A DNA stretch of 64,000 nucleotides from an uncultured Candidatus Saccharibacteria bacterium (GCA_964615625.1 CAZTQT010000002.1:5555-69554), one strand, 5' to 3'; numbered from the stretch's first letter, positions 7,635 through 20,909 are shown. Program-made: numbers and translations. Notes: a model not told the origin generated them from the sequence alone.

Positions 7635-8423
7635 ATGGATTTCCACGAAATCACTCAATTTGAGAGAGAAATTTATAATAAAGGCATAAAATACATTGCC
7701 GGTATAGATGAGGTGGGTAGAGGACCTCTGGCTGGTCCTTTTGTTGTATCAGCAGTTATTTTAGATCTTGAAAAAATATTTAGCTCTAAATTTCAAAATA
7801 ATCTCAGAAATATAAAGGATAAAAATATTAGATTTCCTACCAATATAGGAAAAGACAGCATATTGGACAATAAATTAATACGGAAAGAGGATCCAACAAA
7901 TAACGACGTCTCGTTAGATAAAAATGGGCTTGTAGAAACCTACATGTATACACAAATAAAAGATTCTAAAAAATTATCTGCAAAAAAGAGGGATTATTTA
8001 TCTGAATTTATTAAAAAGGAAGCTTTAAGCTATACAATAGAGGTCTTTGAACCGGAAGACATAGATAAAACAGGTATTACAAAACTAACTCAAGAAGCTT
8101 TTTTTAAATCTATAAAAGACTTAAATATAAAAGCACAATATGTACTCACAGACATGTTTGAGGTTGATAAAATAACAAAAGAACATCAGAGAAACATTAT
8201 AAATGGGGATAGTAAAAGTATAACAATAGCTTCAGCCAGCATAATAGCTAAGGTATTTAGAGATAATATTATGATAGAAGCCGGTAAAAAATACCCAAAG
8301 TACGGTTTTGATAAACATAAGGGATATGGAACAAAAGCACACATGGAAGCTATTTATAAATTTGGGCCATGTGAGATACACAGAAAAAGCTACGAGCCCA
8401 TAAAAAGTATATTAAAAAAATAA
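7635..8423 (+). CDS. rnhB: Ribonuclease HII, with an internal insertion of about 65 aa
   Basis: GIDEVGRGPLAGPFVVSAVIL, DSKKLSAKKR and a C-terminal KHKGYG…HRKSY. Confidence 0.85.
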   Translation: MDFHEITQFEREIYNKGIKYIAGIDEVGRGPLAGPFVVSAVILDLEKIFSSKFQNNLRNIKDKNIRFPTNIGKDSILDNKLIRKEDPTNNDVSLDKNGLVETYMYTQIKDSKKLSAKKRDYLSEFIKKEALSYTIEVFEPEDIDKTGITKLTQEAFFKSIKDLNIKAQYVLTDMFEVDKITKEHQRNIINGDSKSITIASASIIAKVFRDNIMIEAGKKYPKYGFDKHKGYGTKAHMEAIYKFGPCEIHRKSYEPIKSILKK

Positions 8424-8458
8424 AAAGCCCGGCAAAATCAAAATGCAGGGCTTTTGTA
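8423..8458. terminator. Bidirectional hairpin terminator between rnhB (+) and the 8469 gene (-)
   Basis: An aaaagccc / gggctttt stem flanked by A- and T-runs. Confidence 0.5.
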
Positions 8459-8468
8459 GGTAGGTAGG

Positions 8469-8837
8469 TTAGCTTATTTTCTCCATAAGAATAGTGCCGT
8501 AAGAAGCATTTCTATTCTTAGGATCCATACTCACCACCTTATAAATATCCTCTTCCTTTCTACCTTGCATGAGCAAGTGCTCACGACAAAATGGTGCTAA
8601 AAACACAGGTTTCTTAATAGCATCTTCTTGCGGTTTCCTAAAAAGAGGGGAACCAGATAATTGGTAACGTATCCTTATACTATCTTCCTTAGATGAATAA
8701 AGAACATCACTAAGCCTTAAAGTGGCTAATGGCTTTCCGTCACCATCAATCTCATTTGATACTACATGCTCTGTTTTAACAGTAGTTGTAGGATTCCATC
8801 GCCAAAAATAAAAATCTACATCTTTATCTTTTCCCAT
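8469..8837 (-). CDS. Hypothetical protein
   Basis: 122-aa ORF with no recognisable motif, adjacent to the recombinase gene. Confidence 0.45.
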   Translation of the reverse strand: MGKDKDVDFYFWRWNPTTTVKTEHVVSNEIDGDGKPLATLRLSDVLYSSKEDSIRIRYQLSGSPLFRKPQEDAIKKPVFLAPFCREHLLMQGRKEEDIYKVVSMDPKNRNASYGTILMEKIS

Positions 8838-8842
8838 TTCAA

Positions 8843-9229
8843 TTAAAAAACCTTTCTCGCTATATTTTCCAATACAATAGAATAGTTTCTATTATATTTA
8901 AGCCAAACCTCAGAAATATAATACCCTGATAAATCACGTATATGAGTAATACCTGTTTCCTGACAACATCCTTGTGATGAAAGGTAATTTATGCACCCCA
9001 TAAGTACGTAATACCCATGATCCACATCCAATATTTCAAACAGTGTTGGAAATACTTTAGTATTTGGAGTACTACAATCTACTATTAATGTCCCTAATCT
9101 GGTAACCGGATCATCAAAATGAATACCTGTATATTTAATTAGAGCAGAAGGTGTCACAGCATCAACTTCAGGGTAAATGCAAAGAGTAGCCGCCTCAATT
9201 CCTTGCAGGGTCTTATAACCTCTAATCAT
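8843..9229 (-). CDS. Hypothetical protein, Cys-containing
   Basis: 128-aa ORF, 5 bp from the next gene, so a likely two-gene operon. Confidence 0.45.
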   Translation of the reverse strand: MIRGYKTLQGIEAATLCIYPEVDAVTPSALIKYTGIHFDDPVTRLGTLIVDCSTPNTKVFPTLFEILDVDHGYYVLMGCINYLSSQGCCQETGITHIRDLSGYYISEVWLKYNRNYSIVLENIARKVF

Positions 9230-9391
9230 TTTTCTCTCCTTTTACTGATTATTTTTTTCATTCTAGCATCAACAAAAAGTTAAGACAATGTTGGATAATT
9301 ACATGTAATTTGTATTATATAACCTATAGTAGGATTGGGGGTAAAATCTAAGATAATCTAAAATAAGAGGTGCGCAAACATGCAGGGAAAC

Positions 9392-10417
9392 CTACCCAAG
9401 GAAAGAGACCTCATCACTTTTGTCTGAATCTTCCTCTTCTAAACTACCATCCGAAATAATATCTTTATGATACTTTCTATGTATATCCCGCAACTGTTTA
9501 TTTGTTATATGAGTATATATTTGAGTTGTAGAAACATTAGAATGTCCTAACATCTCCTGCACTTCACGCAAATCAGCTCCCTCAGAGAGCAAGCCTGTGG
9601 CGTAAGTGTGTCTTAATGTGTGCGGGGTAGCATCAACGGATATTCCAGATCTTTTTACATACTTTTTAATAAGCCTTTGGACACTTCGTGGAGTAATTCT
9701 CAAAGACTCACCGTCAAAATCGTTTTCTTGCATTTTCTTACCAGAATACCTTATAAACAAAGGGACATAAGGATCAGCACGGGTAAAAAGGTATTTTTTA
9801 AGCCATTTTATAGCCTCAGGTGACAGGTAAACTGTACGAGCTTTCCTACCTTTTCCTACAACTGTAAACTCTCCAGTCTCTAAATTTACCTCATCTCTAT
9901 TTAACGCAACAAGCTCTGACACACGTAGACCTGTACTGTAAAGTGTTTCAATAATAGCTTTATCTCTAATCCCAGACTTTTTATCTAAATTTTGAACTTC
10001 AAACAATTTCTTCATTTGTTGTGTATTTAGAACCTTTGGCACACGGTCTTCAGACTTACCCAAAATTATTTTTTCTGGAGAAAAGGCCTCTATACCTTTT
10101 TCAATGACTAAGTATTTCAAAAACGCCCTAATAGCGACAAGAAATGTCTTTTGGGTAGACCTCTTAAATTCACTATTTGACTTAGAACTAATTCTACGAT
10201 TCAAATTGACTCTGTATTTCTTAATCAAATCGTCATCTATGTCTGAAATTGAAAAAACATCTTTTTTGAGGAAATCTTCTGACCACTGACCAAAATCAGT
10301 TAAATAAAAATGGTACATCTTTATAGTGTTTTGTGAGAGATTTCTTTCAAGTTCACAAAATTCAAGATACTCAAGTACAACATCATCAAATTTTAAAGAT
10401 AAATTAATCTTAGCCAT
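9392..10417 (-). CDS. Tyrosine site-specific recombinase, XerC/XerD-like
   Basis: C-terminal catalytic HTLRHTYATGLL…LGHSNVSTTQIYTH with the nucleophile Tyr, an N-terminal core-binding SAM-like domain, and an acidic C-terminal tail. Confidence 0.85.
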   Translation of the reverse strand: MAKINLSLKFDDVVLEYLEFCELERNLSQNTIKMYHFYLTDFGQWSEDFLKKDVFSISDIDDDLIKKYRVNLNRRISSKSNSEFKRSTQKTFLVAIRAFLKYLVIEKGIEAFSPEKIILGKSEDRVPKVLNTQQMKKLFEVQNLDKKSGIRDKAIIETLYSTGLRVSELVALNRDEVNLETGEFTVVGKGRKARTVYLSPEAIKWLKKYLFTRADPYVPLFIRYSGKKMQENDFDGESLRITPRSVQRLIKKYVKRSGISVDATPHTLRHTYATGLLSEGADLREVQEMLGHSNVSTTQIYTHITNKQLRDIHRKYHKDIISDGSLEEEDSDKSDEVSFLG

Positions 10418-10885
10418 ATTTATTAAAATTATACTTCATATAAAAGCTTGTGAAAAATCACAATGTATTAAAATCTGGAGAGGCCTACCATCTCACATAT
10501 GTATTTTCATGCAACTGCAAATGATTTCAAGATAAACAACTATACTTAAACGGTTAAAGTAACGTCAAAAAATTAAAAACGCCTTAAAATCGATTCTAGA
10601 GCCTAATACCTACTTTTTGTTGTTGTTACAACTTAAACACAGACAATCACTAAACAAAAATAATAAAACAGGGTCGGGAAGAGGTTAAAAATTTACGGGA
10701 TAACCGCATATAAAGAGGAGCGGGAAATAGGTACCAGAAAAACATAGATATATAAATGAGGTAGAGAAATTAAATTTTCATTGAATATATTTTTAATAAA
10801 TAAATCTAAAAAATAATCATTATAATTTTCTTTATTATTTTTGTGAAAAATAACAGTGGAGAGGTGATCTTGGTTTATACACAAG

Positions 10886-10913
10886 ACGTCGTATAATGTA
10901 TGTTTAACGACAT
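10886..10913. promoter_or_regulatory. Candidate dif-like Xer recombination site
   Basis: ACGTCGTATAA-TGTATG-TTTAACGACAT: two 11-bp arms matching 8 of 11 as inverted repeats around a 6-bp TGTAT(G/A) spacer. This resembles the dif consensus (…ATAA TGTATA TTATGT…) and lies about 470 bp from the recombinase gene. Confidence 0.4.
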
Positions 10914-11126
10914 CATGTTAGGGGTAAAGCCATAAAACAACATATAAGGGAAGTAGACGGATTATGACACTAGCTATGAGAGAGAAGTGAAATAAACGCA
11001 CGTTAATTAATTAAATTATTTTCTCCTTTTATTTCTATTTAATTAAATTATTTTCCCTCAATTAAATTCCTCTAAATCTGTTGTAAGTTTTTTTGCAGTT
11101 ATTAATTTACTTTCCCGCATACCAAG

Positions 11127-11135
11127 TTATCCACA
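11127..11135 (+). promoter_or_regulatory. Perfect DnaA-box consensus TTATCCACA, single copy
   Basis: Exact 9-mer match. A 1-mismatch TTATACACA lies at about 10874. Confidence 0.3.
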
Positions 11136-11150
11136 TCCCCTACTCCGGAA

Positions 11151-11324
11151 AACTATGACAAACTTACAGAAAATAACTATGACAATTCTACAGAGAAATA
11201 TATATGACAATCTTACAAAGAAACGTGATTTTTTACATTATTTAATATAAAAATACTATAAGATACTATAAGTTATACAAAGTTAGCACTCCAACCTATA
11301 GTATGACAAACGTACCGAAGAAAA
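11151..11324. repeat. Iteron-like direct repeats, four copies of about 23 bp
   Basis: Three tandem copies at 11151–11223 and a fourth at 11297–11324, in a 1 kb ORF-free region. Consensus is TATGACAA-N4-5-TACAGA(A/G)AAA. Confidence 0.6.
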
Positions 11325-11435
11325 CCCTAATAAAAATTGCACTATCCCCTTCCCCACTTCCCCATTATACCCTGTTGTTAAAACAAAAAGTAAGATTTTA
11401 TGAACTTAAAAAGCAAAATTAAATGTCTAAAATTT

Positions 11436-12317
11436 CTAGAGTCTAAAAAACAACATTAATATAAAAAATACTAAGATAATCAAAAGATACCTCATTATAA
11501 TACCGCGGGATAAATCGTTTTTTAAATGTAAAGAGATGTAATTTAGTATAAAAAGCATCATTGAGGAAACAAACAAAGCTCTTAGGAAATCCTCTGATGG
11601 AAAAAAGGAAACTGCAAAAGAAGATATGTAAATAATAAAAAATGAGAAAGCACACAGATATAATCTCTCCCCTAAACTGGTCTTTTTTGCATCAGGCTCG
11701 TATTCATGTATTTTTAATTGGTAATAAGTGAATAAAACTGAAATTGTTGATGCCAAAGCAGATTGTATAAAAACTACCACGTTTAGTTTAAATATACCTG
11801 CAAGAAGTGGGATAGCTACAATAATTTGAAGTATCTGACTCCATGTGACTGCTACCCTAAATAAAGGAATTATCTCTTCCCTATCGTGGACTACCAAAAA
11901 TATATTATCTGCAAGAGAAACTAAATAATACAGTCCTGAGAAAAAAATAATTACAAATATTTTAAAAACAGACCCCAAATTTGGATAAAAAGTTAATGAA
12001 AGTAACGCCCCAGACACAACACTGATAGGCATTATTGTACTAAACAAAAAGTTTTCCTTTGTAACACCTGGGTAATGTGAAATAAGAACACCGGAAAATA
12101 CTAAAAAAATCCCTATTATTACAGTTAAAAATAGGTTTTGTTTAATCACTCCCTGGGTAAAAGTGTATATAAACACAGCTATAAGTGCCGACTGAATGAG
12201 ATACCTGTTTCTTTTTGCTATATCAGAACTAACTATTTTTAGCATTTTTCTTTTTAACCTTCTCGGCAGGATGTTTTGGGATGAATGCTGTTTCCCAATC
12301 ATCTTTAACACTACCAT
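11436..12317 (-). CDS. Polytopic membrane protein, hypothetical
   Basis: About 8 predicted TM helices. The start is uncertain: the longest ORF overlaps ruvC by 89 bp, and an alternative Met at 12245 overlaps by 17 bp. Confidence 0.5.
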   Translation of the reverse strand: MVVLKMIGKQHSSQNILPRRLKRKMLKIVSSDIAKRNRYLIQSALIAVFIYTFTQGVIKQNLFLTVIIGIFLVFSGVLISHYPGVTKENFLFSTIMPISVVSGALLSLTFYPNLGSVFKIFVIIFFSGLYYLVSLADNIFLVVHDREEIIPLFRVAVTWSQILQIIVAIPLLAGIFKLNVVVFIQSALASTISVLFTYYQLKIHEYEPDAKKTSLGERLYLCAFSFFIIYISSFAVSFFPSEDFLRALFVSSMMLFILNYISLHLKNDLSRGIIMRYLLIILVFFILMLFFRL

Positions 12318-14153: not shown

Positions 14154-14942
14154 TTACCTCAAATCATCATCATCCATTATATTGTTAATATATTCTTTTT
14201 GTACTTTTTCATCAGTGCTCTGCTTTTGTGGTGCAATCTTTTCTTCTTTTTTAATATTTTTTGGCTTTGTATCTTTGTCTTTTTTAATTACCGCAACTCC
14301 CCCACTCTCGGAACTTTTATTTTCATTTTTTGATCTCTTTGGCTTCGGTTTTCTTTCAACCTTTATATCTTTTTTCTCAGGTTTTTCGGGTAATTTTGCT
14401 GCTGTACTGTCTTTAAGAACTTTATCTAAAGCCGCAAAAGGAACTTTAGAATTTTCTTTTGGTATTAAGGCCACTGCTTTATCATTTAACTCTGCATTGT
14501 TGTATTCAGCCGATATATCAGATATTTTATAAGAACCATCATCAGACAATAAATACCACTTACCTTCTTTTTTAGCTAAAACACCCTCAACTTGTTTTCT
14601 TTCAACCTTATCTATTTGCTTAAAAATTTGTTTCCCAGAATCCGTAAAAACCTTTAAAATATCCCCATAAACTAGCTTTGATTTGGCTGCATAGTTAGCT
14701 GGTACTTCTGTTTTCCTACCATCTTGTGCTATTAAATACTGACCATCAAAAACACCTTCTGTTCCTGGAACACTTTGGTAATGGGCTTTTCTTTCTTCTT
14801 GCTCCATCAAATCTATGGCGTTTTTAACCTTCTCCATATGATTTAAAGAAGCCTGAATAAGATTCTTTATATTCTCATACTTTTTTTGATAACTACCTTT
14901 AAATTCAAACTCGTCCTTTTTTTCTTTTTTATTTTCTTCCAT
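14154..14942 (-). CDS. Lys-rich hypothetical protein
   Basis: 262-aa ORF, 4 bp downstream of the ATPase gene, with a K/E-rich low-complexity tail. Confidence 0.45.
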   Translation of the reverse strand: MEENKKEKKDEFEFKGSYQKKYENIKNLIQASLNHMEKVKNAIDLMEQEERKAHYQSVPGTEGVFDGQYLIAQDGRKTEVPANYAAKSKLVYGDILKVFTDSGKQIFKQIDKVERKQVEGVLAKKEGKWYLLSDDGSYKISDISAEYNNAELNDKAVALIPKENSKVPFAALDKVLKDSTAAKLPEKPEKKDIKVERKPKPKRSKNENKSSESGGVAVIKKDKDTKPKNIKKEEKIAPQKQSTDEKVQKEYINNIMDDDDLR

Positions 14943-14945
14943 CTT

Positions 14946-17483
14946 TTACTCCTCTATATTTTCTAAATTTATATTTTCAGGATTATCTAAATTTTTTTCA
15001 GCATACTCTTGAGCTATAGCCATACCCTTATCAAATTTTGTTGTAAGCCATTTATTCACTCTGCCTTCAACTTTTTCCCTTGGCACTCCGTATTTTTCCC
15101 TACTTCTTTGTAAAACTTTCTCACGGTTAGATGTTTTAGGTACAATAAAGTCATCTGCCCATGGGACTATAATTTTAGCCGAAAATGGATGCGATGTCAT
15201 TCCATCAACCATTAGTTTAGTATATATCTGAAATCTTTCTAAAGAAATTATATCTTCTTCCGTAAAGTATGGTGCAAACTCCTTAGATAATTCTTTAGCA
15301 TCGGGAGCACCTAAGGAAAATGTCATTATAGTACCAACGTTTCCATAAACAGCCTTAAGCAGATTCTCCGGCAATTGTCCCGTAAACTGATGGGTTAAGT
15401 TTAAACCTAACTTATATTTTCTTGATTCAGAAAGTATCTCTTCAAAACTTCCGGTAGCAAAGTTTTGAAACTCATCTACATAAAGATAAAAGGGTCTTCT
15501 TCTATCGTTTGGTATTTTGGCCCTTTGGAGAGCGTAGAATTGAATTCTAGACACCAATAAAGCCCCAAGTAGGTTAGCATTATCCTGACCTATCTTACCC
15601 TTTGAAAGGTTCATTAAAAGTATTTTCCCAGAATTCATGGCATCCCAAATATCTATAGTTGATCTTCTTTGACCAAGTATATTTCTTATTGTTGTAGAGG
15701 CTAAAAATCTATTTACCTTGTTTTGAATTGGCGATATGGCTTCTGTCACCAGTTTTTGATTGCCTTTCATTTGTTTAAATTCTTCGTCCCAAAACTTTTT
15801 AACCAACGGGTCTCTCACACTGTGCAAAATATAATTCAAATAATTTTGATCTTCTAATAATCTGGTAATTCCTAGCATTGTAGTACCTGGAACTTCTAAT
15901 AAAGTCAGGACGCAGTAATTTAGCAAGTATTCAAGTCTAGGTCCCCATGAAAAATCAAAATGTTGTTTTATAGCTGAAACAAGACCAGAAGCCATGAGGT
16001 TTTTTTGAGATTGATCGTCTATCTCAAGAAGATTTAGTGCAACCGGAAATTCAGTATCAGAAGGATCCATGTATATTACATCCTCTACTCTATTATCAGG
16101 AATTCTGTCTAAGATATTTTCTATAGTCTCACCATGGGGATCTAATATTGCGGCCCCCTGACCATTAGCTATATCTTGAGACAACATTGTTACAAATAAT
16201 GACGACTTACCTGTTCCTGACTTTCCTATGACGTAAAGGTGCCTTAATCTATCATCGTTATCGTTTCTTATTCCAAACTTAACAGATTTATTTCTATATA
16301 ATGTTTCACCTATGTATGTACAGTTCTCAGTGGGTAAATTAGCGGGTGGTTCTGATTTTCTTGAGTAAACCCATGAAATATTGGGAGTATCTATATTAGA
16401 AAGAGGAAAATGAAAAATTGTCGCTAACTCCTCTGTATTAAGTATCAAACACCTGCTAGGATCAAATTCTCTATTCTTGTAATCACTTAGAGCCGCAACT
16501 TTGTTACTTTCCTCACTACTAGAAAAACTATTTAAACTTGTTCCAGAAAACTGATTTAAAGAAGCTATTATCCCTCTCATATTAGTATCTACTCTATCCA
16601 TACTTGTAGAGGCTGATACAACTCTGACAACAGTCTCAAAACCCATTCTTGATAATTTATTTTCAATTGATTTTAACTCCGTCTCTTTTGCAGCACTTAT
16701 TTTAGGAGGAGTGGTAATATATTTTCCTTTAACTTCCGTTCCTTGGGCAGGTGTTGTAAAAAGACCTGTTATGACTCCGGAGACTATTTCTACTATTTCT
16801 TTTTTAATAACGTCAAAAAATATGTTGTAAGCACTTCTTGTTTTTCCTGGATCGGCACCTTCCCTCACTTTATTTACATAGTCAAAACCTTCTTGTTGCC
16901 ATTTATCTGCAACAGGTCTGACTAAAACCTGAAACCAAACTTCTTCCCCACCTAATAAGTTTGATACAGAAGATGACATTGAAGAAATAGGATCAGTTTC
17001 AAAATCTCTAAAACTCTTAATTGGATAAAAATCTGGTTTTGTAAAAGAAATTGTAGATACCTTATATTCTGTGTGAGAAGTATTTATAGCTGGAGTATAG
17101 TCAGAAACTACGGATATATGAGCATCTGGGTATTGTGCGTATATCTGACTTTCAACAAACTTTAAGATATTTGATGGAGTTGTAACATAAAAACGTATCC
17201 CTCTATCTCCTGATGCAACCATCTCAAAAGACACACGCTCCTGCATTGCTGAGTCATCTTTTAATAAACCGTGTAAAGCAGAAAACATATTTTCCGCGCT
17301 TAGAGAAGATGCTTGAATATCTCTCTTTTGATCATCGTTTCTACTTAGCTGTACTTCCAGAACTTCTACATTACTATCAGAAAGTTTTTCCTCTGTTTTT
17401 TTAGATTTTTTGATTTTTAAATACACACCAAACAGAACAAGTCCTAAAGCAATAATTATTATTAAATAATCTCCTAAATTCAT
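14946..17483 (-). CDS. Membrane-anchored P-loop ATPase of the HerA/FtsK/VirB4 (DUF87-like) superfamily
   Basis: N-terminal TM helix, a non-ATPase domain of about 400 aa, then Walker A VIGKSGTGKSS, DPHGE and Walker B LYVDEFQNF. Confidence 0.7.
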   Translation of the reverse strand: MNLGDYLIIIIALGLVLFGVYLKIKKSKKTEEKLSDSNVEVLEVQLSRNDDQKRDIQASSLSAENMFSALHGLLKDDSAMQERVSFEMVASGDRGIRFYVTTPSNILKFVESQIYAQYPDAHISVVSDYTPAINTSHTEYKVSTISFTKPDFYPIKSFRDFETDPISSMSSSVSNLLGGEEVWFQVLVRPVADKWQQEGFDYVNKVREGADPGKTRSAYNIFFDVIKKEIVEIVSGVITGLFTTPAQGTEVKGKYITTPPKISAAKETELKSIENKLSRMGFETVVRVVSASTSMDRVDTNMRGIIASLNQFSGTSLNSFSSSEESNKVAALSDYKNREFDPSRCLILNTEELATIFHFPLSNIDTPNISWVYSRKSEPPANLPTENCTYIGETLYRNKSVKFGIRNDNDDRLRHLYVIGKSGTGKSSLFVTMLSQDIANGQGAAILDPHGETIENILDRIPDNRVEDVIYMDPSDTEFPVALNLLEIDDQSQKNLMASGLVSAIKQHFDFSWGPRLEYLLNYCVLTLLEVPGTTMLGITRLLEDQNYLNYILHSVRDPLVKKFWDEEFKQMKGNQKLVTEAISPIQNKVNRFLASTTIRNILGQRRSTIDIWDAMNSGKILLMNLSKGKIGQDNANLLGALLVSRIQFYALQRAKIPNDRRRPFYLYVDEFQNFATGSFEEILSESRKYKLGLNLTHQFTGQLPENLLKAVYGNVGTIMTFSLGAPDAKELSKEFAPYFTEEDIISLERFQIYTKLMVDGMTSHPFSAKIIVPWADDFIVPKTSNREKVLQRSREKYGVPREKVEGRVNKWLTTKFDKGMAIAQEYAEKNLDNPENINLENIEE

Positions 17484-17704
17484 TTATTTTTCCTTCCTTT
17501 TTAATATCTCCATAATATTTGGTAGAGGTTAAATAATAACCTCTGACCAATAAACTACAAGTTTTCAAATTACTTCGCGGCGACAAGCTTAAACTTGGGG
17601 AATAAAATAAACCCCCGCCCATCTGACGAGCTTGCGAGTCCGAGGGGTAACGTTTTAATCCCAAGAACTCTAAGACACTAAAATTTAGACGTCAGATTGG
17701 AGGT

Positions 17705-17739
17705 ATAAATAAACCCCCGCCCTATATTTGGGACGGGGG
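17705..17739 (-). terminator. Rho-independent terminator for the 17768–18841 gene
   Basis: Minus-strand hairpin CCCCCGTCCC…GGGCGGGGG followed by a U-run. Confidence 0.6.
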
Positions 17740-17767
17740 ATAGAAAGGAGAGAGTACTATGGTTATA

Positions 17768-18841
17768 TTAATACAAATCTCCTGAAGTGTCAAATCCAAG
17801 TATAACTACAACATCCGATCTATCTACCTCGTTCTCCATGATACTATGGGATCTAGCCTCTGCTTTAGAGATTATATTAGATATTCTAAAAACCCGTGAT
17901 AAAAATAACACTGTTTCAGACGCATTATCATCAGTAACAATGACACTTTTATCATAAGTTTTTGTAGTATTTTGAGTAGCTACTACTCTACCACCAAAAT
18001 TATTTACTACCCTTGATCCAAAAGACGCCAATCCAGAATAATTTGTACCGTTTAATACAGAGACACTCTTTTTTTCCTTAGATAAAACAGAATCCAAAGT
18101 AAATTCCCTTATAAAATTATCAAAATTATCAGTATTGGAAAAATTTTCTGGAACTATATTTTTTTCTAATATATTTTCTTTTGGCAAAGAACTGATAAAA
18201 GATGTCAGATTATAAAACTCTCTTATATCCATATCTGTTTTCAAATGATCGTTTAAACTAGCAACGTCTTTCATTTTCATCATTTTTAAGATTCCGCCCC
18301 CACGCCATAGTTTATCAAAAAAATCATCATATTTGGTGTCAGTAACAATAAATTTATCTACTTTAAATCCAAAAAGTTTAAAAATAGATCTGTTTATAGC
18401 CTCTGCCCCAGAAACATATTTATCTTGTGCGTTTAACTCACCTAATGCAAACACCTTATCAAGAGTCTCAGAACCAAATCTTCCGGGTATTTCATAATTT
18501 TTATCAACAGGGACATTAAAAGCAAAAACACGATTTGTATCTTTATTGAGAATAAAAAACTCTACCTTTTTTATGACAACTGGGTCTGATTTTAAGTCTT
18601 CTGCAACAATGTAGGAAATTGTAGGAATGGGTTCGTCTGCAATTGCATAACTTGTTGATGAAAGTGCTGACGCAAACCTTTGATTTAGATATTTGTAGAA
18701 AGTATATGAAAAAAGTAAAAGAAATGAGAAAACAAACACCACAACAACTACGACTGCATTACGAATATTTTTACGTGCAGACCTAGTTATACCTGTTTTA
18801 GAGCTAGAACTATATTTCCTTCGGGCAGGGATCTTTTTCAT
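17768..18841 (-). CDS. Signal-anchored hypothetical protein
   Basis: Basic N-terminus plus one TM helix, then a domain of about 300 aa with no recognised motif. Confidence 0.5.
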   Translation of the reverse strand: MKKIPARRKYSSSSKTGITRSARKNIRNAVVVVVVFVFSFLLLFSYTFYKYLNQRFASALSSTSYAIADEPIPTISYIVAEDLKSDPVVIKKVEFFILNKDTNRVFAFNVPVDKNYEIPGRFGSETLDKVFALGELNAQDKYVSGAEAINRSIFKLFGFKVDKFIVTDTKYDDFFDKLWRGGGILKMMKMKDVASLNDHLKTDMDIREFYNLTSFISSLPKENILEKNIVPENFSNTDNFDNFIREFTLDSVLSKEKKSVSVLNGTNYSGLASFGSRVVNNFGGRVVATQNTTKTYDKSVIVTDDNASETVLFLSRVFRISNIISKAEARSHSIMENEVDRSDVVVILGFDTSGDLY

Positions 18842-19558: not shown

Positions 19559-19860
19559 AACTGATAAAAAATAACAAACACACCTATTGTAATAGCAAAA
19601 TCAGCTAAATTAAAATGGAAAATATTAAAAAAGTTTATATAGTCCCTTACGCATCCATTTTTAATCCATTCAAAAATATTGGATAAACTACCAAATAATA
19701 TAAGTAAAAACCCTATATTATAATTTAAACCTTTTTCGTAAAAATTTTTTATGTAAAAAAATGAAAATAAAACTAACAACAGCACGGATAACAATACAGA
19801 TAATTTAAACCCTATAAAACTTGAAAAAATATGGTTACAGTTGTAGACAGCTTCTATCAC
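19543..19860 (-). CDS. lspA: Lipoprotein signal peptidase II, apparently N-terminally short
   Basis: C-terminal LspA motifs (LFGSLSN, NGCVRDYINF, FNLADFAITIGV). Only 105 aa with 3 TM helices. An upstream non-ATG start is possible. Confidence 0.65.
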   Translation of the reverse strand: MIEAVYNCNHIFSSFIGFKLSVLLSVLLLVLFSFFYIKNFYEKGLNYNIGFLLILFGSLSNIFEWIKNGCVRDYINFFNIFHFNLADFAITIGVFVIFYQLWKKK

Positions 19861-20909
19861 TGTAAGGCGTTTTTCTCTAGTATCTCATCTTGCCTAATAT
19901 CTTCAATCTGAGATTGATCTGTTGCACAATCTATACATGTTGTTGCCTCTGGATAAGCCTCTAATCTAGCTTTGTCTATCTCCTGTCCACAAACCTCACA
20001 TTTACCATATTTACCCGTTTCTATTGCTTCAAGAGCTTTTCTAACCTGTACTTTTGATTCTTTAACTGTAGATAAACGTGCATCGGTGACAGTTTTTCCT
20101 GTATCTTCTAAAACATCATCTAATGTTTCTGCGTTATCTGTGGCCCTACCGTGTTGTAAATAGGGGTCACTATCTATAAGGGATTGCTGCTGCTCCTTTA
20201 AACTTTTCTCCTTTATTTTTAATCTTCTTTTTAAAGCATTTATAAGATTTTCTGGCAATATTGATTTTGACATAGTTTTTTTACCTCTAAAGTATAGATT
20301 TATAATACCTATTGTAACCAAAATAGAAGCCATTAGTAAAGAACCGCCCTTTTTTAGAAAAACCAAAATGCACACAGAAACTGAGAAAAGAAAGAAGGAA
20401 AATATCATCCCAGACATAAATTTATAACCTCTATGGACCATTACAAGAATATAATTCAGTATTAACAATCCAAGTAAAATTAAGTAAACCCATTCCTTAG
20501 AAACTAAGAAATATCCTAAACTTATAAACATTAAAAAAATTGCAAATGAAACAGAGTAAATATCTAAAAGTCTAAAAATAGACCATTTGAATTTTTTTGA
20601 AAAGAAAAACACTGGTAATAAACTGGTTAGAAAGAAAAAAAGCAATAACACTGATGTTTGGTCAAGTTTTAAAAATATGCTTGATGGAACATATATTTTT
20701 AACCATTCAAAAATCCTATAAACAGTATAAGAAATGCCTCCAGAAATTATAAGAGATGAAAATACAAGATCAAAAAATCTATGAGTATTAAACCCATCTT
20801 TTTTTGACTCACTCCAAAGAACAAAAAGCTGTGAAAACAAACCCAACAAAACAACAACAAAAATGGTATTAAAACTTCCAGATTCTGTTTTTATATTTGC
20901 AGGAATCAT
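19857..20909 (-). CDS. Polytopic membrane domain fused to a C-terminal DksA/TraR-type C4 zinc finger (YlyA-like)
   Basis: About 7 TM helices, then a K-rich linker and CEVCGQEI…TTCIDCA (CxxC-x17-CxxC). Its position upstream of lspA–rluA mirrors Bacillus ylyA. Confidence 0.6.
   Translation of the reverse strand: MIPANIKTESGSFNTIFVVVLLGLFSQLFVLWSESKKDGFNTHRFFDLVFSSLIISGGISYTVYRIFEWLKIYVPSSIFLKLDQTSVLLLFFFLTSLLPVFFFSKKFKWSIFRLLDIYSVSFAIFLMFISLGYFLVSKEWVYLILLGLLILNYILVMVHRGYKFMSGMIFSFFLFSVSVCILVFLKKGGSLLMASILVTIGIINLYFRGKKTMSKSILPENLINALKRRLKIKEKSLKEQQQSLIDSDPYLQHGRATDNAETLDDVLEDTGKTVTDARLSTVKESKVQVRKALEAIETGKYGKCEVCGQEIDKARLEAYPEATTCIDCATDQSQIEDIRQDEILEKNALQ

What the first reader, a model, noticed from the sequence alone, without database searches (positions are those of the whole stretch)
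14154..18841. Membrane-anchored HerA/FtsK/VirB4-superfamily ATPase with hypothetical partners
The 845-aa protein has one N-terminal TM helix, a domain of about 400 aa with no recognised motifs, and then a DUF87/VirB4-like ATPase (GKSGTGKSS, DPHGE, VDEFQNF). A Lys-rich 262-aa protein follows after a 4-bp gap. A signal-anchored 357-aa protein lies upstream with its own terminator. The architecture (TM helix, large ectodomain, ATPase) is reminiscent of VirB4/TraC-like secretion or conjugation ATPases, which have been reported to be important in episymbiotic reduced-genome bacteria. No other T4SS components could be identified nearby, so it may be a minimal or divergent translocation module.
Basis: partly seen in the sequence, partly recalled or inferred. 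Interest (0 to 1): 0.55.

Follow-up and report, generated by a model that had tools for sequence, protein, structure and literature searches.

The report
Orphan conjugation-type coupling ATPase in a CPR bacterium
The 845-residue protein is a membrane-anchored ATPase of the kind that feeds DNA or proteins into type IV secretion machines, belonging to a subtype found across the ultra-small Patescibacteria, already catalogued but never characterised, and sitting here among housekeeping genes with no secretion machine nearby.

Summary
The three ORFs, the motifs and the terminator are real. The 845-aa protein belongs to a large family found throughout the Patescibacteria (this window is WWE3-like). 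It has one N-terminal TM helix, Pfam DUF8128 (PF26449) and a T4CP-type (VirD4/TrwB/DotL-like) ATPase.

With only one TM helix, the 400-aa domain is cytoplasmic, not an ectodomain. A separate AlphaFold model of it matches only the N-terminal domain of VirB4 (TrwK of R388). The ATPase sequence matches coupling proteins, not VirB4.

Distant homologues with the same N-domain include the coupling protein of an actinobacterial conjugative cluster (VirB6-like, PrgI, VirB4, this protein, relaxase-like) and uncharacterised Bacillus and Geobacillus phage proteins.

The 262-aa protein is a true partner. It is translationally coupled and is fused to the ATPase C-terminus in some relatives. The 357-aa LytR_C protein is only a lineage-specific neighbour with its own terminator.

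No T4SS gene was recognised in about 84 kb. The inferred Saccharibacteria orthologue is non-essential in published Tn-seq.

Verdict: an orphan coupling-protein homologue, already noted in the literature. The VirB4-like N-domain and the modular splitting and fusion are the new details. Function is inferred only.

The parts
14946..17483 (-). 845-aa DUF8128 + T4CP-type ATPase (clade B of the Patescibacteria family)
   Evidence: ORF. Pfam DUF87 1.4e-7, TrwB_AAD_bind 2.8e-7 (30.2 bits, cut-off 20.5), TraG-D_C 8e-4. PF26449 precomputed. Family profile against PDB sequences: TrwB 1.4e-8, DotL 6.4e-7.
17403..17468 (-). Single N-terminal TM helix (aa ~6-27), N-out/C-in
   Evidence: KD19 2.48 at aa 6-24, the only window above 1.6. 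Followed by KIKKSKK. Helix 3-28 in both models.
16329..17372 (-). DUF8128 domain (aa ~38-385), cytoplasmic, VirB4-N-terminal-domain-like fold
   Evidence: Domain-only AF2 model, pLDDT 77.9, pTM 0.71. Foldseek PDB: 14 best hits all TrwK/VirB4, E 1e-6 to 8e-4, TMq 0.39-0.45; next hit E 4e-3. BFVD: phage G gp156 E 1e-20, TMq 0.62. 2121 representative clusters at E<=1e-3.
15144..16286 (-). RecA-like nucleotide-binding domain of T4CP type (aa ~400-780)
   Evidence: Pfam TrwB_AAD_bind aligned over aa 414-720. hhalign to pSK41 VirD4-like TrsK over 306 columns, E 6e-5. Foldseek Cagbeta 8dol E 3e-5.
16200..16226 (-). Walker A GKSGTGKSS (aa 420-428)
   Evidence: Sequence. G420, G425 and K426 invariant.
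15672..16028 (-). All-helical insertion between Walker A and Walker B (aa ~486-604), at the position of the T4CP all-alpha domain
   Evidence: Six helices, 491-604, in the AF2 model; pLDDT about 50-77, so moderate confidence.
15471..15488 (-). Walker B YLYVDE (aa 666-671)
   Evidence: Sequence. Y668, D670 and E671 invariant.
14154..14942 (-). 262-aa partner protein: helical N-terminus, beta-rich core, Lys-rich linker, conserved C-terminal tip
   Evidence: Starts 3 nt after the ATPase stop, GAGGAG upstream. Core fused to the ATPase C-terminus in L006 (aa 959-1074) and P0127. 139 homologues, no Pfam family.
14409..14798 (-). Conserved core of the 262-aa protein (aa 49-178)
   Evidence: Invariant G60, G63, F65, G67, N83, Y84, K87, S88, G93, D94, K97, K108, Q109, I110, R115, A170. 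No PDB sequence match.
14157..14198 (-). Conserved C-terminal tip KEYINNIMDDDDLR of the 262-aa protein
   Evidence: [DE]DDLR at the extreme C-terminus in 27 of the 28 aligned homologues that have the tail (28 of 33 rows).
17768..18841 (-). 357-aa signal-anchored LytR_C protein: neighbour, not shown to be a component
   Evidence: LytR_C 2.6e-6 at aa 259-351. TM at aa 30-48. Upstream of the ATPase only in L004-L008.
17714..17739 (-). Intrinsic terminator after the 357-aa gene
   Evidence: 9-bp stem with 8 GC pairs plus TTTATTTATA.

Best explanation
Shown: the 845-aa gene encodes a coupling-protein-type (VirD4/TrwB/TraD-like, T4CP) ATPase of a subtype found across the Patescibacteria classes sampled. 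It is tethered to the cytoplasmic face of the membrane by one N-terminal helix. Between the anchor and the motor it carries a cytoplasmic DUF8128 domain with the fold of the VirB4 N-terminal domain. The 262-aa protein downstream corresponds to a C-terminal module that is part of the ATPase itself in some relatives: a beta-rich core, a Lys-rich flexible linker and a conserved acidic tip ending in DDDLR.

Inferred: like other T4CPs, the protein forms a membrane-associated ring, uses ATP, and recruits a nucleic-acid or protein substrate. Recruitment would go through its C-terminal module (the 262-aa protein here) and, in other lineages, through an adjacent Sigma70_r4 + HARE-HTH DNA-binding protein. 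The substrate would be handed to a membrane channel, most plausibly the Patescibacteria T4SS encoded elsewhere. The VirB4-like N-domain would provide the docking surface that VirB4 uses for VirB3/VirB8-type subunits. The 357-aa LytR_C protein is an unrelated envelope protein.
For: T4CP identity.
- Pfam TrwB_AAD_bind is above its cut-off. Relatives also hit T4SS-DNA_transf and TraG-D_C.
- The family profile finds TrwB (1.4e-8) and DotL (6.4e-7) among PDB sequences, and no VirB4.
- hhalign aligns 306 columns with the pSK41 VirD4-like protein, but only a 73-column P-loop stretch with pSK41 VirB4.
- Walker A and B residues are invariant.

VirB4-like N-domain.

A bona fide T4CP shares this N-domain. 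On Embleya plasmid NZ_CP108778 the 812-aa homologue lies between VirB4 and a Replic_Relax protein, next to PrgI, TrbL_4 and NlpC/P60 genes. Its N-domain aligns with DUF8128 (hhalign probability 90.6%, E 1.3e-6, 285 columns). A Pontibacillus replicon has a split homologue about 8 kb from a VirB4-like CD1110 cluster.

Family anatomy. All 82 non-window loci carry the N-domain and the ATPase. They are fused in most and split into two adjacent genes in 14.

Partner. The 262-aa core is fused to the ATPase C-terminus in L006 and P0127, and the two genes are translationally coupled.

DNA-binding neighbour. A Sigma70_r4 + HARE-HTH protein lies directly upstream in 39 of 82 loci from two deep classes, and part of it is fused to the ATPase in L050.

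Literature. 5,713 VirD4-type homologues were found in 2,918 of 3,035 Patescibacteria genomes, and only 148 were near virB4. The S. epibionticum T4SS cluster lacks a recognisable coupling protein.
Against: No VirB4, VirB6, VirB8, VirB3, pilin or relaxase family was recognised in the 64-kb window or in about 10 kb beyond each end. Whether this organism has a T4SS at all could not be tested.

The Saccharibacteria orthologue inferred from synteny (SEML1_0293) is non-essential in Tn-seq, whereas the T4SS cluster is essential. It is therefore not an obligatory T4SS subunit there.

The N-domain similarity to VirB4 is structural only. TMq is 0.39-0.45, and there is no sequence signal to TrsD or to the VirB4 N-domain.

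The C-terminal half of the ATPase is poorly modelled.
Confidence: 0.55

Rival explanations
1. T4SS-independent membrane DNA motor. The ATPase ring works by itself, or with an unrecognised channel, on DNA delivered by its DNA-binding partners. Possible roles are DNA import or export at the epibiont-host interface, or processing of the chromosome near the terminus.
For: The neighbours are DNA-handling genes in every lineage. In Saccharibacteria they are DprA, TopA and the HARE-HTH protein. In WWE3 and Dojkabacteria-like loci they are YebC, RuvC and XerC. In Microgenomates a convergent Xer-type recombinase lies directly downstream. The gene lies 4-7 kb from an apparent replication terminus. The gene is dispensable where the T4SS is essential. 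There is a weak NCBIfam hit to the archaeal DNA-import ATPase CedD.
Against: A canonical and essential FtsK exists in S. epibionticum, so this is not the FtsK substitute. The CedD hit covers only the P-loop region (27 bits against a 600-bit cut-off). Housekeeping synteny in small genomes is weak evidence. The closest homologue with an interpretable context is a T4CP inside a T4SS cluster.
Confidence: 0.25
2. One reading: a divergent VirB4/TraC-like energising ATPase that, together with the 357-aa and 262-aa proteins, forms a minimal self-contained translocation module.
For: The two-domain architecture and the N-domain fold match VirB4 over about 800 aligned columns. The N-terminal TM helix could stand in for a fused VirB3.
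Against: The ATPase sequence matches T4CP profiles, not VirB4. No polytopic channel protein is linked in any lineage. The 357-aa protein has its own terminator, faces outward and is adjacent only in a few related lineages. Patescibacteria have a separate genuine VirB4.
Confidence: 0.07
3. A HerA-like ATPase of an anti-phage defence system, or a decaying remnant of an integrated conjugative element or prophage.
For: PADLOC hits to mad8 (1.4e-11) and HerA (1e-6). Homologues occur on plasmids and phages.
Against: No other defence, integrase-flanked or mobile-element genes accompany it. Synteny with housekeeping genes is stable across WWE3. The 120 listed homologues are 58-100% identical, and the catalytic residues are invariant in relatives down to 31% identity. 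The family was found in all the Patescibacteria classes sampled. GC content does not differ from the flanks.
Confidence: 0.05

Closest known systems
Type IV coupling proteins (VirD4 / TrwB / TraD / TraG / DotL; Pfam PF10412, PF02534, PF12696)
   Same: N-terminal membrane anchor. RecA-like NBD with Walker A and B. A helical insertion where the all-alpha domain sits. Sequence matches to TrwB and DotL. A variable C-terminal tail or adaptor used for partner recognition (inference from TraD-TraM and DotL-adaptor biology, my own knowledge).
   Different: One TM helix instead of the usual two. An extra cytoplasmic domain of about 350 aa (DUF8128) between anchor and NBD. Chromosomal, with no relaxase and no mating-pair-formation genes nearby.
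DUF8128-type coupling protein of actinobacterial conjugative clusters (e.g. WP_331738717.1, Embleya plasmid NZ_CP108778)
   Same: Same N-domain (hhalign probability 90.6%) and the same T4CP-type ATPase. About 24% identity over aa 116-768, E 2e-58.
   Different: That protein sits between VirB4 and a Replic_Relax protein in a T4SS cluster. The window's gene is an orphan among housekeeping genes.
VirB4 / TrwK / TraC
   Same: Two-domain plan: an N-terminal domain of about 400 aa with the same fold, followed by a C-terminal ATPase. The split into an N-domain gene and an ATPase gene in some lineages resembles TrsD + TrsE of pSK41.
   Different: No VirB4-type Pfam family is matched. The profile finds no VirB4 in the PDB. 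Sequence alignment to pSK41 VirB4 is limited to the P-loop, and there is no signal to TrsD.
SEML1_0293 of Southlakia epibionticum (Saccharibacteria), and the 'T4CP homologues far from virB4' of Quinonero-Coronel et al. 2025
   Same: Same annotation, same domain positions (PF10412 at aa 402-719) and the same DprA - TopA - HARE-HTH - ATPase synteny as the clade-B Saccharibacteria loci that match the window protein at 36-38% identity.
   Different: 921 aa with a built-in tail. It has the HARE-HTH neighbour, which is absent from this window. Orthology is inferred from synteny and annotation, not from its sequence.
phrog_5156 (Bacillus phage G gp156, SP-10, SPO1-like and CP-51-like phages; Geobacillus TP-84 gp48, D6E ORF23)
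   Same: Full-length match: aa 80-809 against profile positions 75-804, E 1.8e-94. The N-domain fold matches gp156 at E 1e-20.
   Different: About 21% identity, encoded by phages, function unknown.

Membership tests
Type IV coupling protein (VirD4/TrwB/TraD/TraG) | RecA-like NBD with intact Walker A and Walker B | tested here: met
   GKSGTGKS and YVDE are present. K426, D670 and E671 are invariant in 30 divergent relatives.
Type IV coupling protein (VirD4/TrwB/TraD/TraG) | Sequence membership in T4CP profiles rather than VirB4, FtsK or HerA profiles | tested here: met
   PF10412 scores 30.2 bits against a 20.5 cut-off. PDB profile hits are TrwB 1.4e-8 and DotL 6.4e-7; HerA is 1e-3; no VirB4. 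306 columns align with pSK41 VirD4-like, against 73 with VirB4. No phylogeny was built.
Type IV coupling protein (VirD4/TrwB/TraD/TraG) | All-alpha domain inserted in the NBD | tested here: inconclusive
   Six predicted helices at aa 491-604, between Walker A and Walker B, but pLDDT is only about 50-77.
Type IV coupling protein (VirD4/TrwB/TraD/TraG) | N-terminal membrane anchor with a cytoplasmic motor | tested here: met
   One TM helix at aa 6-24, with positive charges on its C-terminal side. Canonical members have two helices.
Type IV coupling protein (VirD4/TrwB/TraD/TraG) | Genetic linkage to VirB4/mating-pair-formation genes or a relaxase | tested here: not met
   None recognised in the 64-kb window or about 10 kb beyond each end.
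Type IV coupling protein (VirD4/TrwB/TraD/TraG) | Couples substrates to a T4SS channel | not testable with these tools
   Needs genetics or biochemistry.
VirB4 / TraC / CagE | N-terminal domain with the VirB4 fold | tested here: met
   Domain-only model: the top 14 PDB hits are all TrwK, E 1e-6 to 8e-4, TMq 0.39-0.45.
VirB4 / TraC / CagE | VirB4-type sequence (CagE_TrbE_VirB, AAA_10, TraC_F_IV) | tested here: not met
   No such Pfam hit. No VirB4 among the PDB profile hits. The N-domain gives no signal to TrsD.
VirB4 / TraC / CagE | Encoded with VirB3/VirB6/VirB8-type membrane subunits | tested here: not met
Pfam DUF8128 (PF26449) | Match to the family model | tested here: met
   Precomputed annotation of the identical protein P0001 and of all listed homologues. 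The model is absent from the local Pfam copy. The N-domain alone retrieves 2121 representative clusters.
FtsK/SpoIIIE | 4-TM N-domain with alpha, beta and gamma domains (PF13491, PF17854, PF01580, PF09397) | tested here: not met
   No FtsK family hit for the window protein. A separate canonical FtsK exists in S. epibionticum.
HerA helicase | HerA-specific profile over the full length, with a nuclease partner | tested here: not met
   NCBIfam HerA scores 16 bits against an 800-bit cut-off, P-loop only. No nuclease neighbour.

The most novel reading that the evidence does not exclude
The DUF8128 ATPases are a distinct, ancient branch of the VirB4/VirD4 lineage. Each is a coupling-protein motor that still carries the VirB4 N-terminal domain. 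In Patescibacteria (and in Bacillus phages) they have been freed from conjugation and work as T4SS-independent membrane translocases. A DNA-binding partner (the HARE-HTH protein, or the 262-aa module with its acidic tip) would load nucleic acid for export to, or import from, the host cell.
Probability: 0.15. Interest if true: 0.7.

Novelty: new member of a known kind. Interest (0 to 1): 0.4.

Why it matters
Patescibacteria depend on host bacteria, and their T4SS is essential in the one species tested, yet its cluster has no recognised coupling protein and its substrates are unknown. Coupling-protein homologues encoded elsewhere are present in 96% of the genomes surveyed. They are the obvious candidates for choosing what is transported.

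Three results give concrete handles for pull-downs and deletions in the tractable Saccharibacteria. The family keeps a VirB4-like docking domain. It splits and fuses at fixed points (N-domain, motor, tail module). It travels with DNA-binding partners.

The gene in this window is one more member of that already-catalogued family.

Tried and rejected
- Rfam on 13-20 kb and on the whole window: only two tRNAs, and nothing in the 284-nt leader.
- DUF8128 is not mentioned in any paper of the library.
- The 262-aa protein has no Pfam, NCBIfam, PADLOC or PDB sequence match; PHROGs gave only one marginal hit (phrog_37318, E 0.01).
- hhalign of DUF8128 against pSK41 TrsD gave no signal.
- tblastn with the N-domain alone finds only 4 plasmid records.
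- WWE3 is absent from the stored part of the Quinonero-Coronel tables, and a literature search for WWE3 plus T4SS gave nothing useful. Whether WWE3 has a VirB4 cluster stays open.
- The idea that this is the CPR substitute for FtsK was dropped, because S. epibionticum has a canonical, essential FtsK.
- The idea that the 898-kb Pontibacillus 'plasmid' is a mislabelled CPR genome was dropped, because it carries flagellar and chemotaxis genes.
- The look-up of the 314-aa ORF at the right window edge found no record.

Full report
**Observation.** The three ORFs lie on the minus strand exactly as described: 357 aa (17768-18841), 845 aa (14946-17483) and 262 aa (14154-14942).
- The quoted motifs are in the translation. 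Walker A K426 and Walker B D670/E671 are invariant in 30 relatives of 31-66% identity.
- The 845-aa protein has one convincing hydrophobic segment (aa 6-24, Kyte-Doolittle 2.48). The next best window (1.30) contains four charged residues.
- The 262-aa ORF begins 3 nt after the ATPase stop codon, behind a GAGGAG Shine-Dalgarno sequence. It is 18.7% lysine but also 18.3% acidic.
- The 357-aa ORF has a signal anchor, followed by a hairpin of 9 pairs (8 G-C) and a T-run at 17739-17714.
- The genes are real. The search found 1337 homologues of the ATPase and 139 of the 262-aa protein, almost all from Patescibacteria metagenomes; the named ones are candidate division WWE3. The identical protein is on a 111-kb contig of assembly GCA_046128295.1.

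**What the 845-aa protein is.** That model is missing from the local Pfam copy.

By sequence the C-terminal half is a coupling-protein ATPase:
- TrwB_AAD_bind is above its curated cut-off. DUF87 and TraG-D_C also match, and relatives add T4SS-DNA_transf.
- A profile of 30 divergent members finds TrwB (1.4e-8) and DotL/IcmO (6.4e-7) among all PDB sequences. HerA is marginal and VirB4 is absent.
- hhalign aligns 306 columns, from Walker A past Walker B, with the VirD4-like protein of pSK41. It aligns only a 73-column P-loop stretch with pSK41 VirB4.
- The full-length AlphaFold model (pLDDT 71.6) puts six helices between Walker A and Walker B, where coupling proteins carry their all-alpha domain. 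This part and the C-terminal half of the motor are of modest or low confidence.

**The N-terminal domain.** In the full-length model the best PDB matches are TrwK/VirB4 of plasmid R388, aligned over about 800 columns (E 4e-9), ahead of the coupling protein Cagbeta over about 380 columns.

To separate the domains I modelled residues 1-392 alone (pLDDT 77.9, pTM 0.71). Its 14 best PDB hits are all TrwK/VirB4 chains, including a 457-residue TrwK chain. E-values are 1e-6 to 8e-4 and TMq is 0.39-0.45; the next, unrelated hit is at E 4e-3.

The protein has a single TM helix followed by KIKKSKK. DUF8128 and the ATPase must therefore both be cytoplasmic. The 'large ectodomain' reading is wrong.

**The family.**
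- The N-domain alone retrieves 2121 representative clusters. They fall into two size classes: 800-1100 aa (fused to the ATPase) and 410-450 aa (ending exactly at the EPPxxLP boundary).
The best 80 loci come from Saccharibacteria, Dojka-, Nomura-, Peregrini-, Gracili-, Woese-, Levy-, Davies-, Doudna-, Shapiro- and Magasanikbacteria.
- All 82 non-window loci carry the N-domain and the ATPase. They are fused in most and split into two adjacent genes in 14.
- There are two paralogue clades, which stand in tandem in L010, L015 and L030. The window protein belongs to clade B, together with the Saccharibacteria copies.
- The family reaches beyond Patescibacteria. phrog_5156 matches residues 80-809 (E 1.8e-94). 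Bacillus phages G, SP-10, SPO1-like and CP-51-like, and Geobacillus phages TP-84 and D6E, encode full-length homologues of about 21% identity. Phage G gp156 shares the N-domain fold (E 1e-20, TMq 0.62).
- On Embleya plasmid NZ_CP108778 the homologue (E 2e-58) lies in a conjugative cluster. The gene order is TrbL_4 protein, PrgI, VirB4, this protein, Replic_Relax protein, NlpC/P60. Its N-domain aligns with DUF8128 (probability 90.6%, E 1.3e-6, 285 columns).
- A Pontibacillus replicon has a split copy about 8 kb from a VirB4-like CD1110 cluster.
- So DUF8128 plus ATPase is a genuine coupling-protein subtype of monoderm conjugation systems. The Patescibacteria copies are chromosomal orphans of it.

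**Partners.**
- The conserved core of the 262-aa protein (aa 49-178) is fused to the C-terminus of the ATPase in L006 (aa 959-1074) and in P0127. It is a separate gene in L010 and L030.
- Its homologues share an N-terminal helix, the beta-rich core, a variable Lys/Pro-rich linker and an almost invariant C-terminal tip ending in [DE]DDLR.
- Many clade-B ATPases of other classes have instead a built-in basic disordered tail ending in a short hydrophobic-basic tip. This occurs in 24 of 86 ATPases against 46 of 741 other ORFs. The pattern was defined after looking at the data, so it is only suggestive.
- I read the 262-aa protein as the detached C-terminal module of the motor. It has no match in Pfam, NCBIfam, PADLOC or PDB sequences, and only one marginal PHROGs hit (E 0.01).
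- In 39 of 82 loci, from both Saccharibacteria and Parcubacteria-type lineages, the gene directly upstream encodes a protein of about 360 aa with Sigma70_r4 and HARE-HTH domains. Part of it is fused to the ATPase in L050. It is absent from this window.
- The 357-aa LytR_C protein is upstream only in WWE3 and Dojkabacteria-like loci. It faces outward and has its own terminator, so I treat it as a neighbour.

**Context.**
- Every other ORF examined in the window is a housekeeping gene or has no Pfam match. Recognised genes include gyrase, topoisomerase I, DnaB, DnaX, RecR, SSB, EF-P, RuvC, YebC, XerC-like, ribosomal proteins and tRNA enzymes. No VirB, pilin or relaxase family appears at E<=1e-4.
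- Ten kilobases beyond the left end of a sister contig there is a type IV pilus cluster, not a T4SS. Beyond the right end there are large surface proteins.

**Literature.**
- Quinonero-Coronel et al. 2025 found 5,713 VirD4-type homologues in 2,918 of 3,035 Patescibacteria genomes. Only 148 were near virB4, and the authors suggested these homologues may have been exapted.
- Wang et al. 2023 noted that the essential T4SS cluster of S. epibionticum lacks a recognisable coupling protein.
- In their tables SEML1_0293 has the same domain layout and the same DprA - TopA - HARE-HTH - ATPase synteny as our clade-B loci. It is non-essential, although its reads fall from 5817 to 2940 to 1372 over the time course. 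Its HARE-HTH neighbour SEML1_0294 and the second ATPase SEML1_0142 are essential. A canonical FtsK (SEML1_0096) is present and essential.
- Orthology of SEML1_0293 with the window protein is inferred from synteny and annotation, not from its sequence.

**Mechanism and rivals.**
- Shown: family identity, domain order, cytoplasmic topology, intact catalytic motifs, the VirB4-like fold of DUF8128, the physical link to the 262-aa module, and the lack of nearby T4SS genes.
- Inferred: ring formation, ATP-driven handling of a DNA or protein substrate recruited through the tail module or the HARE-HTH partner, and hand-over to the distal T4SS through the VirB4-like domain.
- Main rival: a T4SS-independent DNA motor. 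It is favoured by the DNA-handling neighbours in every lineage, by the phage homologues and by dispensability where the T4SS is essential.

**Verdict.** This is a real gene pair of a known but uncharacterised family, and a new member of a known kind. The VirB4-like N-domain, the fixed split and fusion points, the tail module and the phage and actinobacterial relatives add detail beyond the published census. Function remains inferred. Interest is moderate.

Noticed in passing
window 17484-17767 (- strand): The 284-nt gap before the ATPase gene holds the terminator and a second copy of GGGCGGGGGTTTATTT about 100 nt downstream. The RNA fold has z = -3.9. There is no Rfam match, and the gap is only 8-150 nt in sister loci L004 and L005.
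   Followed up: partly
window ~8400-11450: Gene orientation and GC skew both switch sign here, with genes converging, which looks like the replication terminus. An XerC-like recombinase (9392-10417) and a 1-kb AT-rich non-coding stretch (10418-11435, a possible dif region) lie at the switch, 4-7 kb from the ATPase.
   Followed up: no
window 21606-22502, 22635-23078, 23091-23450 (- strand): Three adjacent paralogous ORFs (298, 147 and 119 aa) are built from repeats of about 35 aa with a Cys-containing motif (EC..V/I ... P.GS). They have no Pfam family.
   Followed up: no
window 19857-20909 (- strand): A 350-aa protein with several N-terminal hydrophobic helices ends in a DksA/TraR C4 zinc finger (E 4e-14). 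This is an unusual, apparently membrane-anchored DksA-like protein, conserved in the WWE3 sister loci.
   Followed up: no
L092 168-9912 (sister contig, left of window start); window 1-~1200 (-): A type IV pilus cluster (PilB, PilT, PilC, pilin, prepilin peptidase) and a two-component system lie just outside the window's left edge. The 3' part of pilB probably runs into the window.
   Followed up: partly
L004-L085, C-termini of the ATPase ORFs: After a basic disordered tail, many clade-B ATPases end in a short tip such as I/L-x-L/F-R/H or PG(E/Q)x(I/V)xF (24 of 86 against 46 of 741 other ORFs). In WWE3 the conserved tip DDDLR is on the separate 262-aa protein. This was a post-hoc pattern.
   Followed up: partly
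L019 6785-7888; L069 6752-7837; L010 6791-7771; L050 6777-10799: A protein of about 360 aa with Sigma70_r4 and HARE-HTH domains lies directly upstream of the ATPase in 39 of 82 loci, and part of it is fused to the ATPase in L050. Its S. epibionticum counterpart (SEML1_0294, annotated RpoS) is essential.
   Followed up: partly
L087 4533-6791 (phage D6E ORF23); L088 4497-6761 (TP-84 gp48); phage G gp155/gp156: Bacillus and Geobacillus phages encode full-length homologues of the DUF8128 ATPase (phrog_5156, function unknown). Phage G has two adjacent genes with the N-domain fold.
   Followed up: partly
L010 2897-11063; L030 3740-11192; L015 1128-6163: Tandem clade-A and clade-B paralogues occur. 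In L010 and L030 the order is ATPase A, 262-aa-like protein, HARE-HTH protein, ATPase B.
   Followed up: partly
L091 (NZ_CP062975.1, Pontibacillus 898-kb 'plasmid'): This replicon carries flagellar, chemotaxis, ClpX and PBP genes, a VirB4-like CD1110 cluster with a pilin-like gene, and a fragmented DUF8128 homologue next to a sigma-like HTH protein and a JAB/RadC protein.
   Followed up: partly
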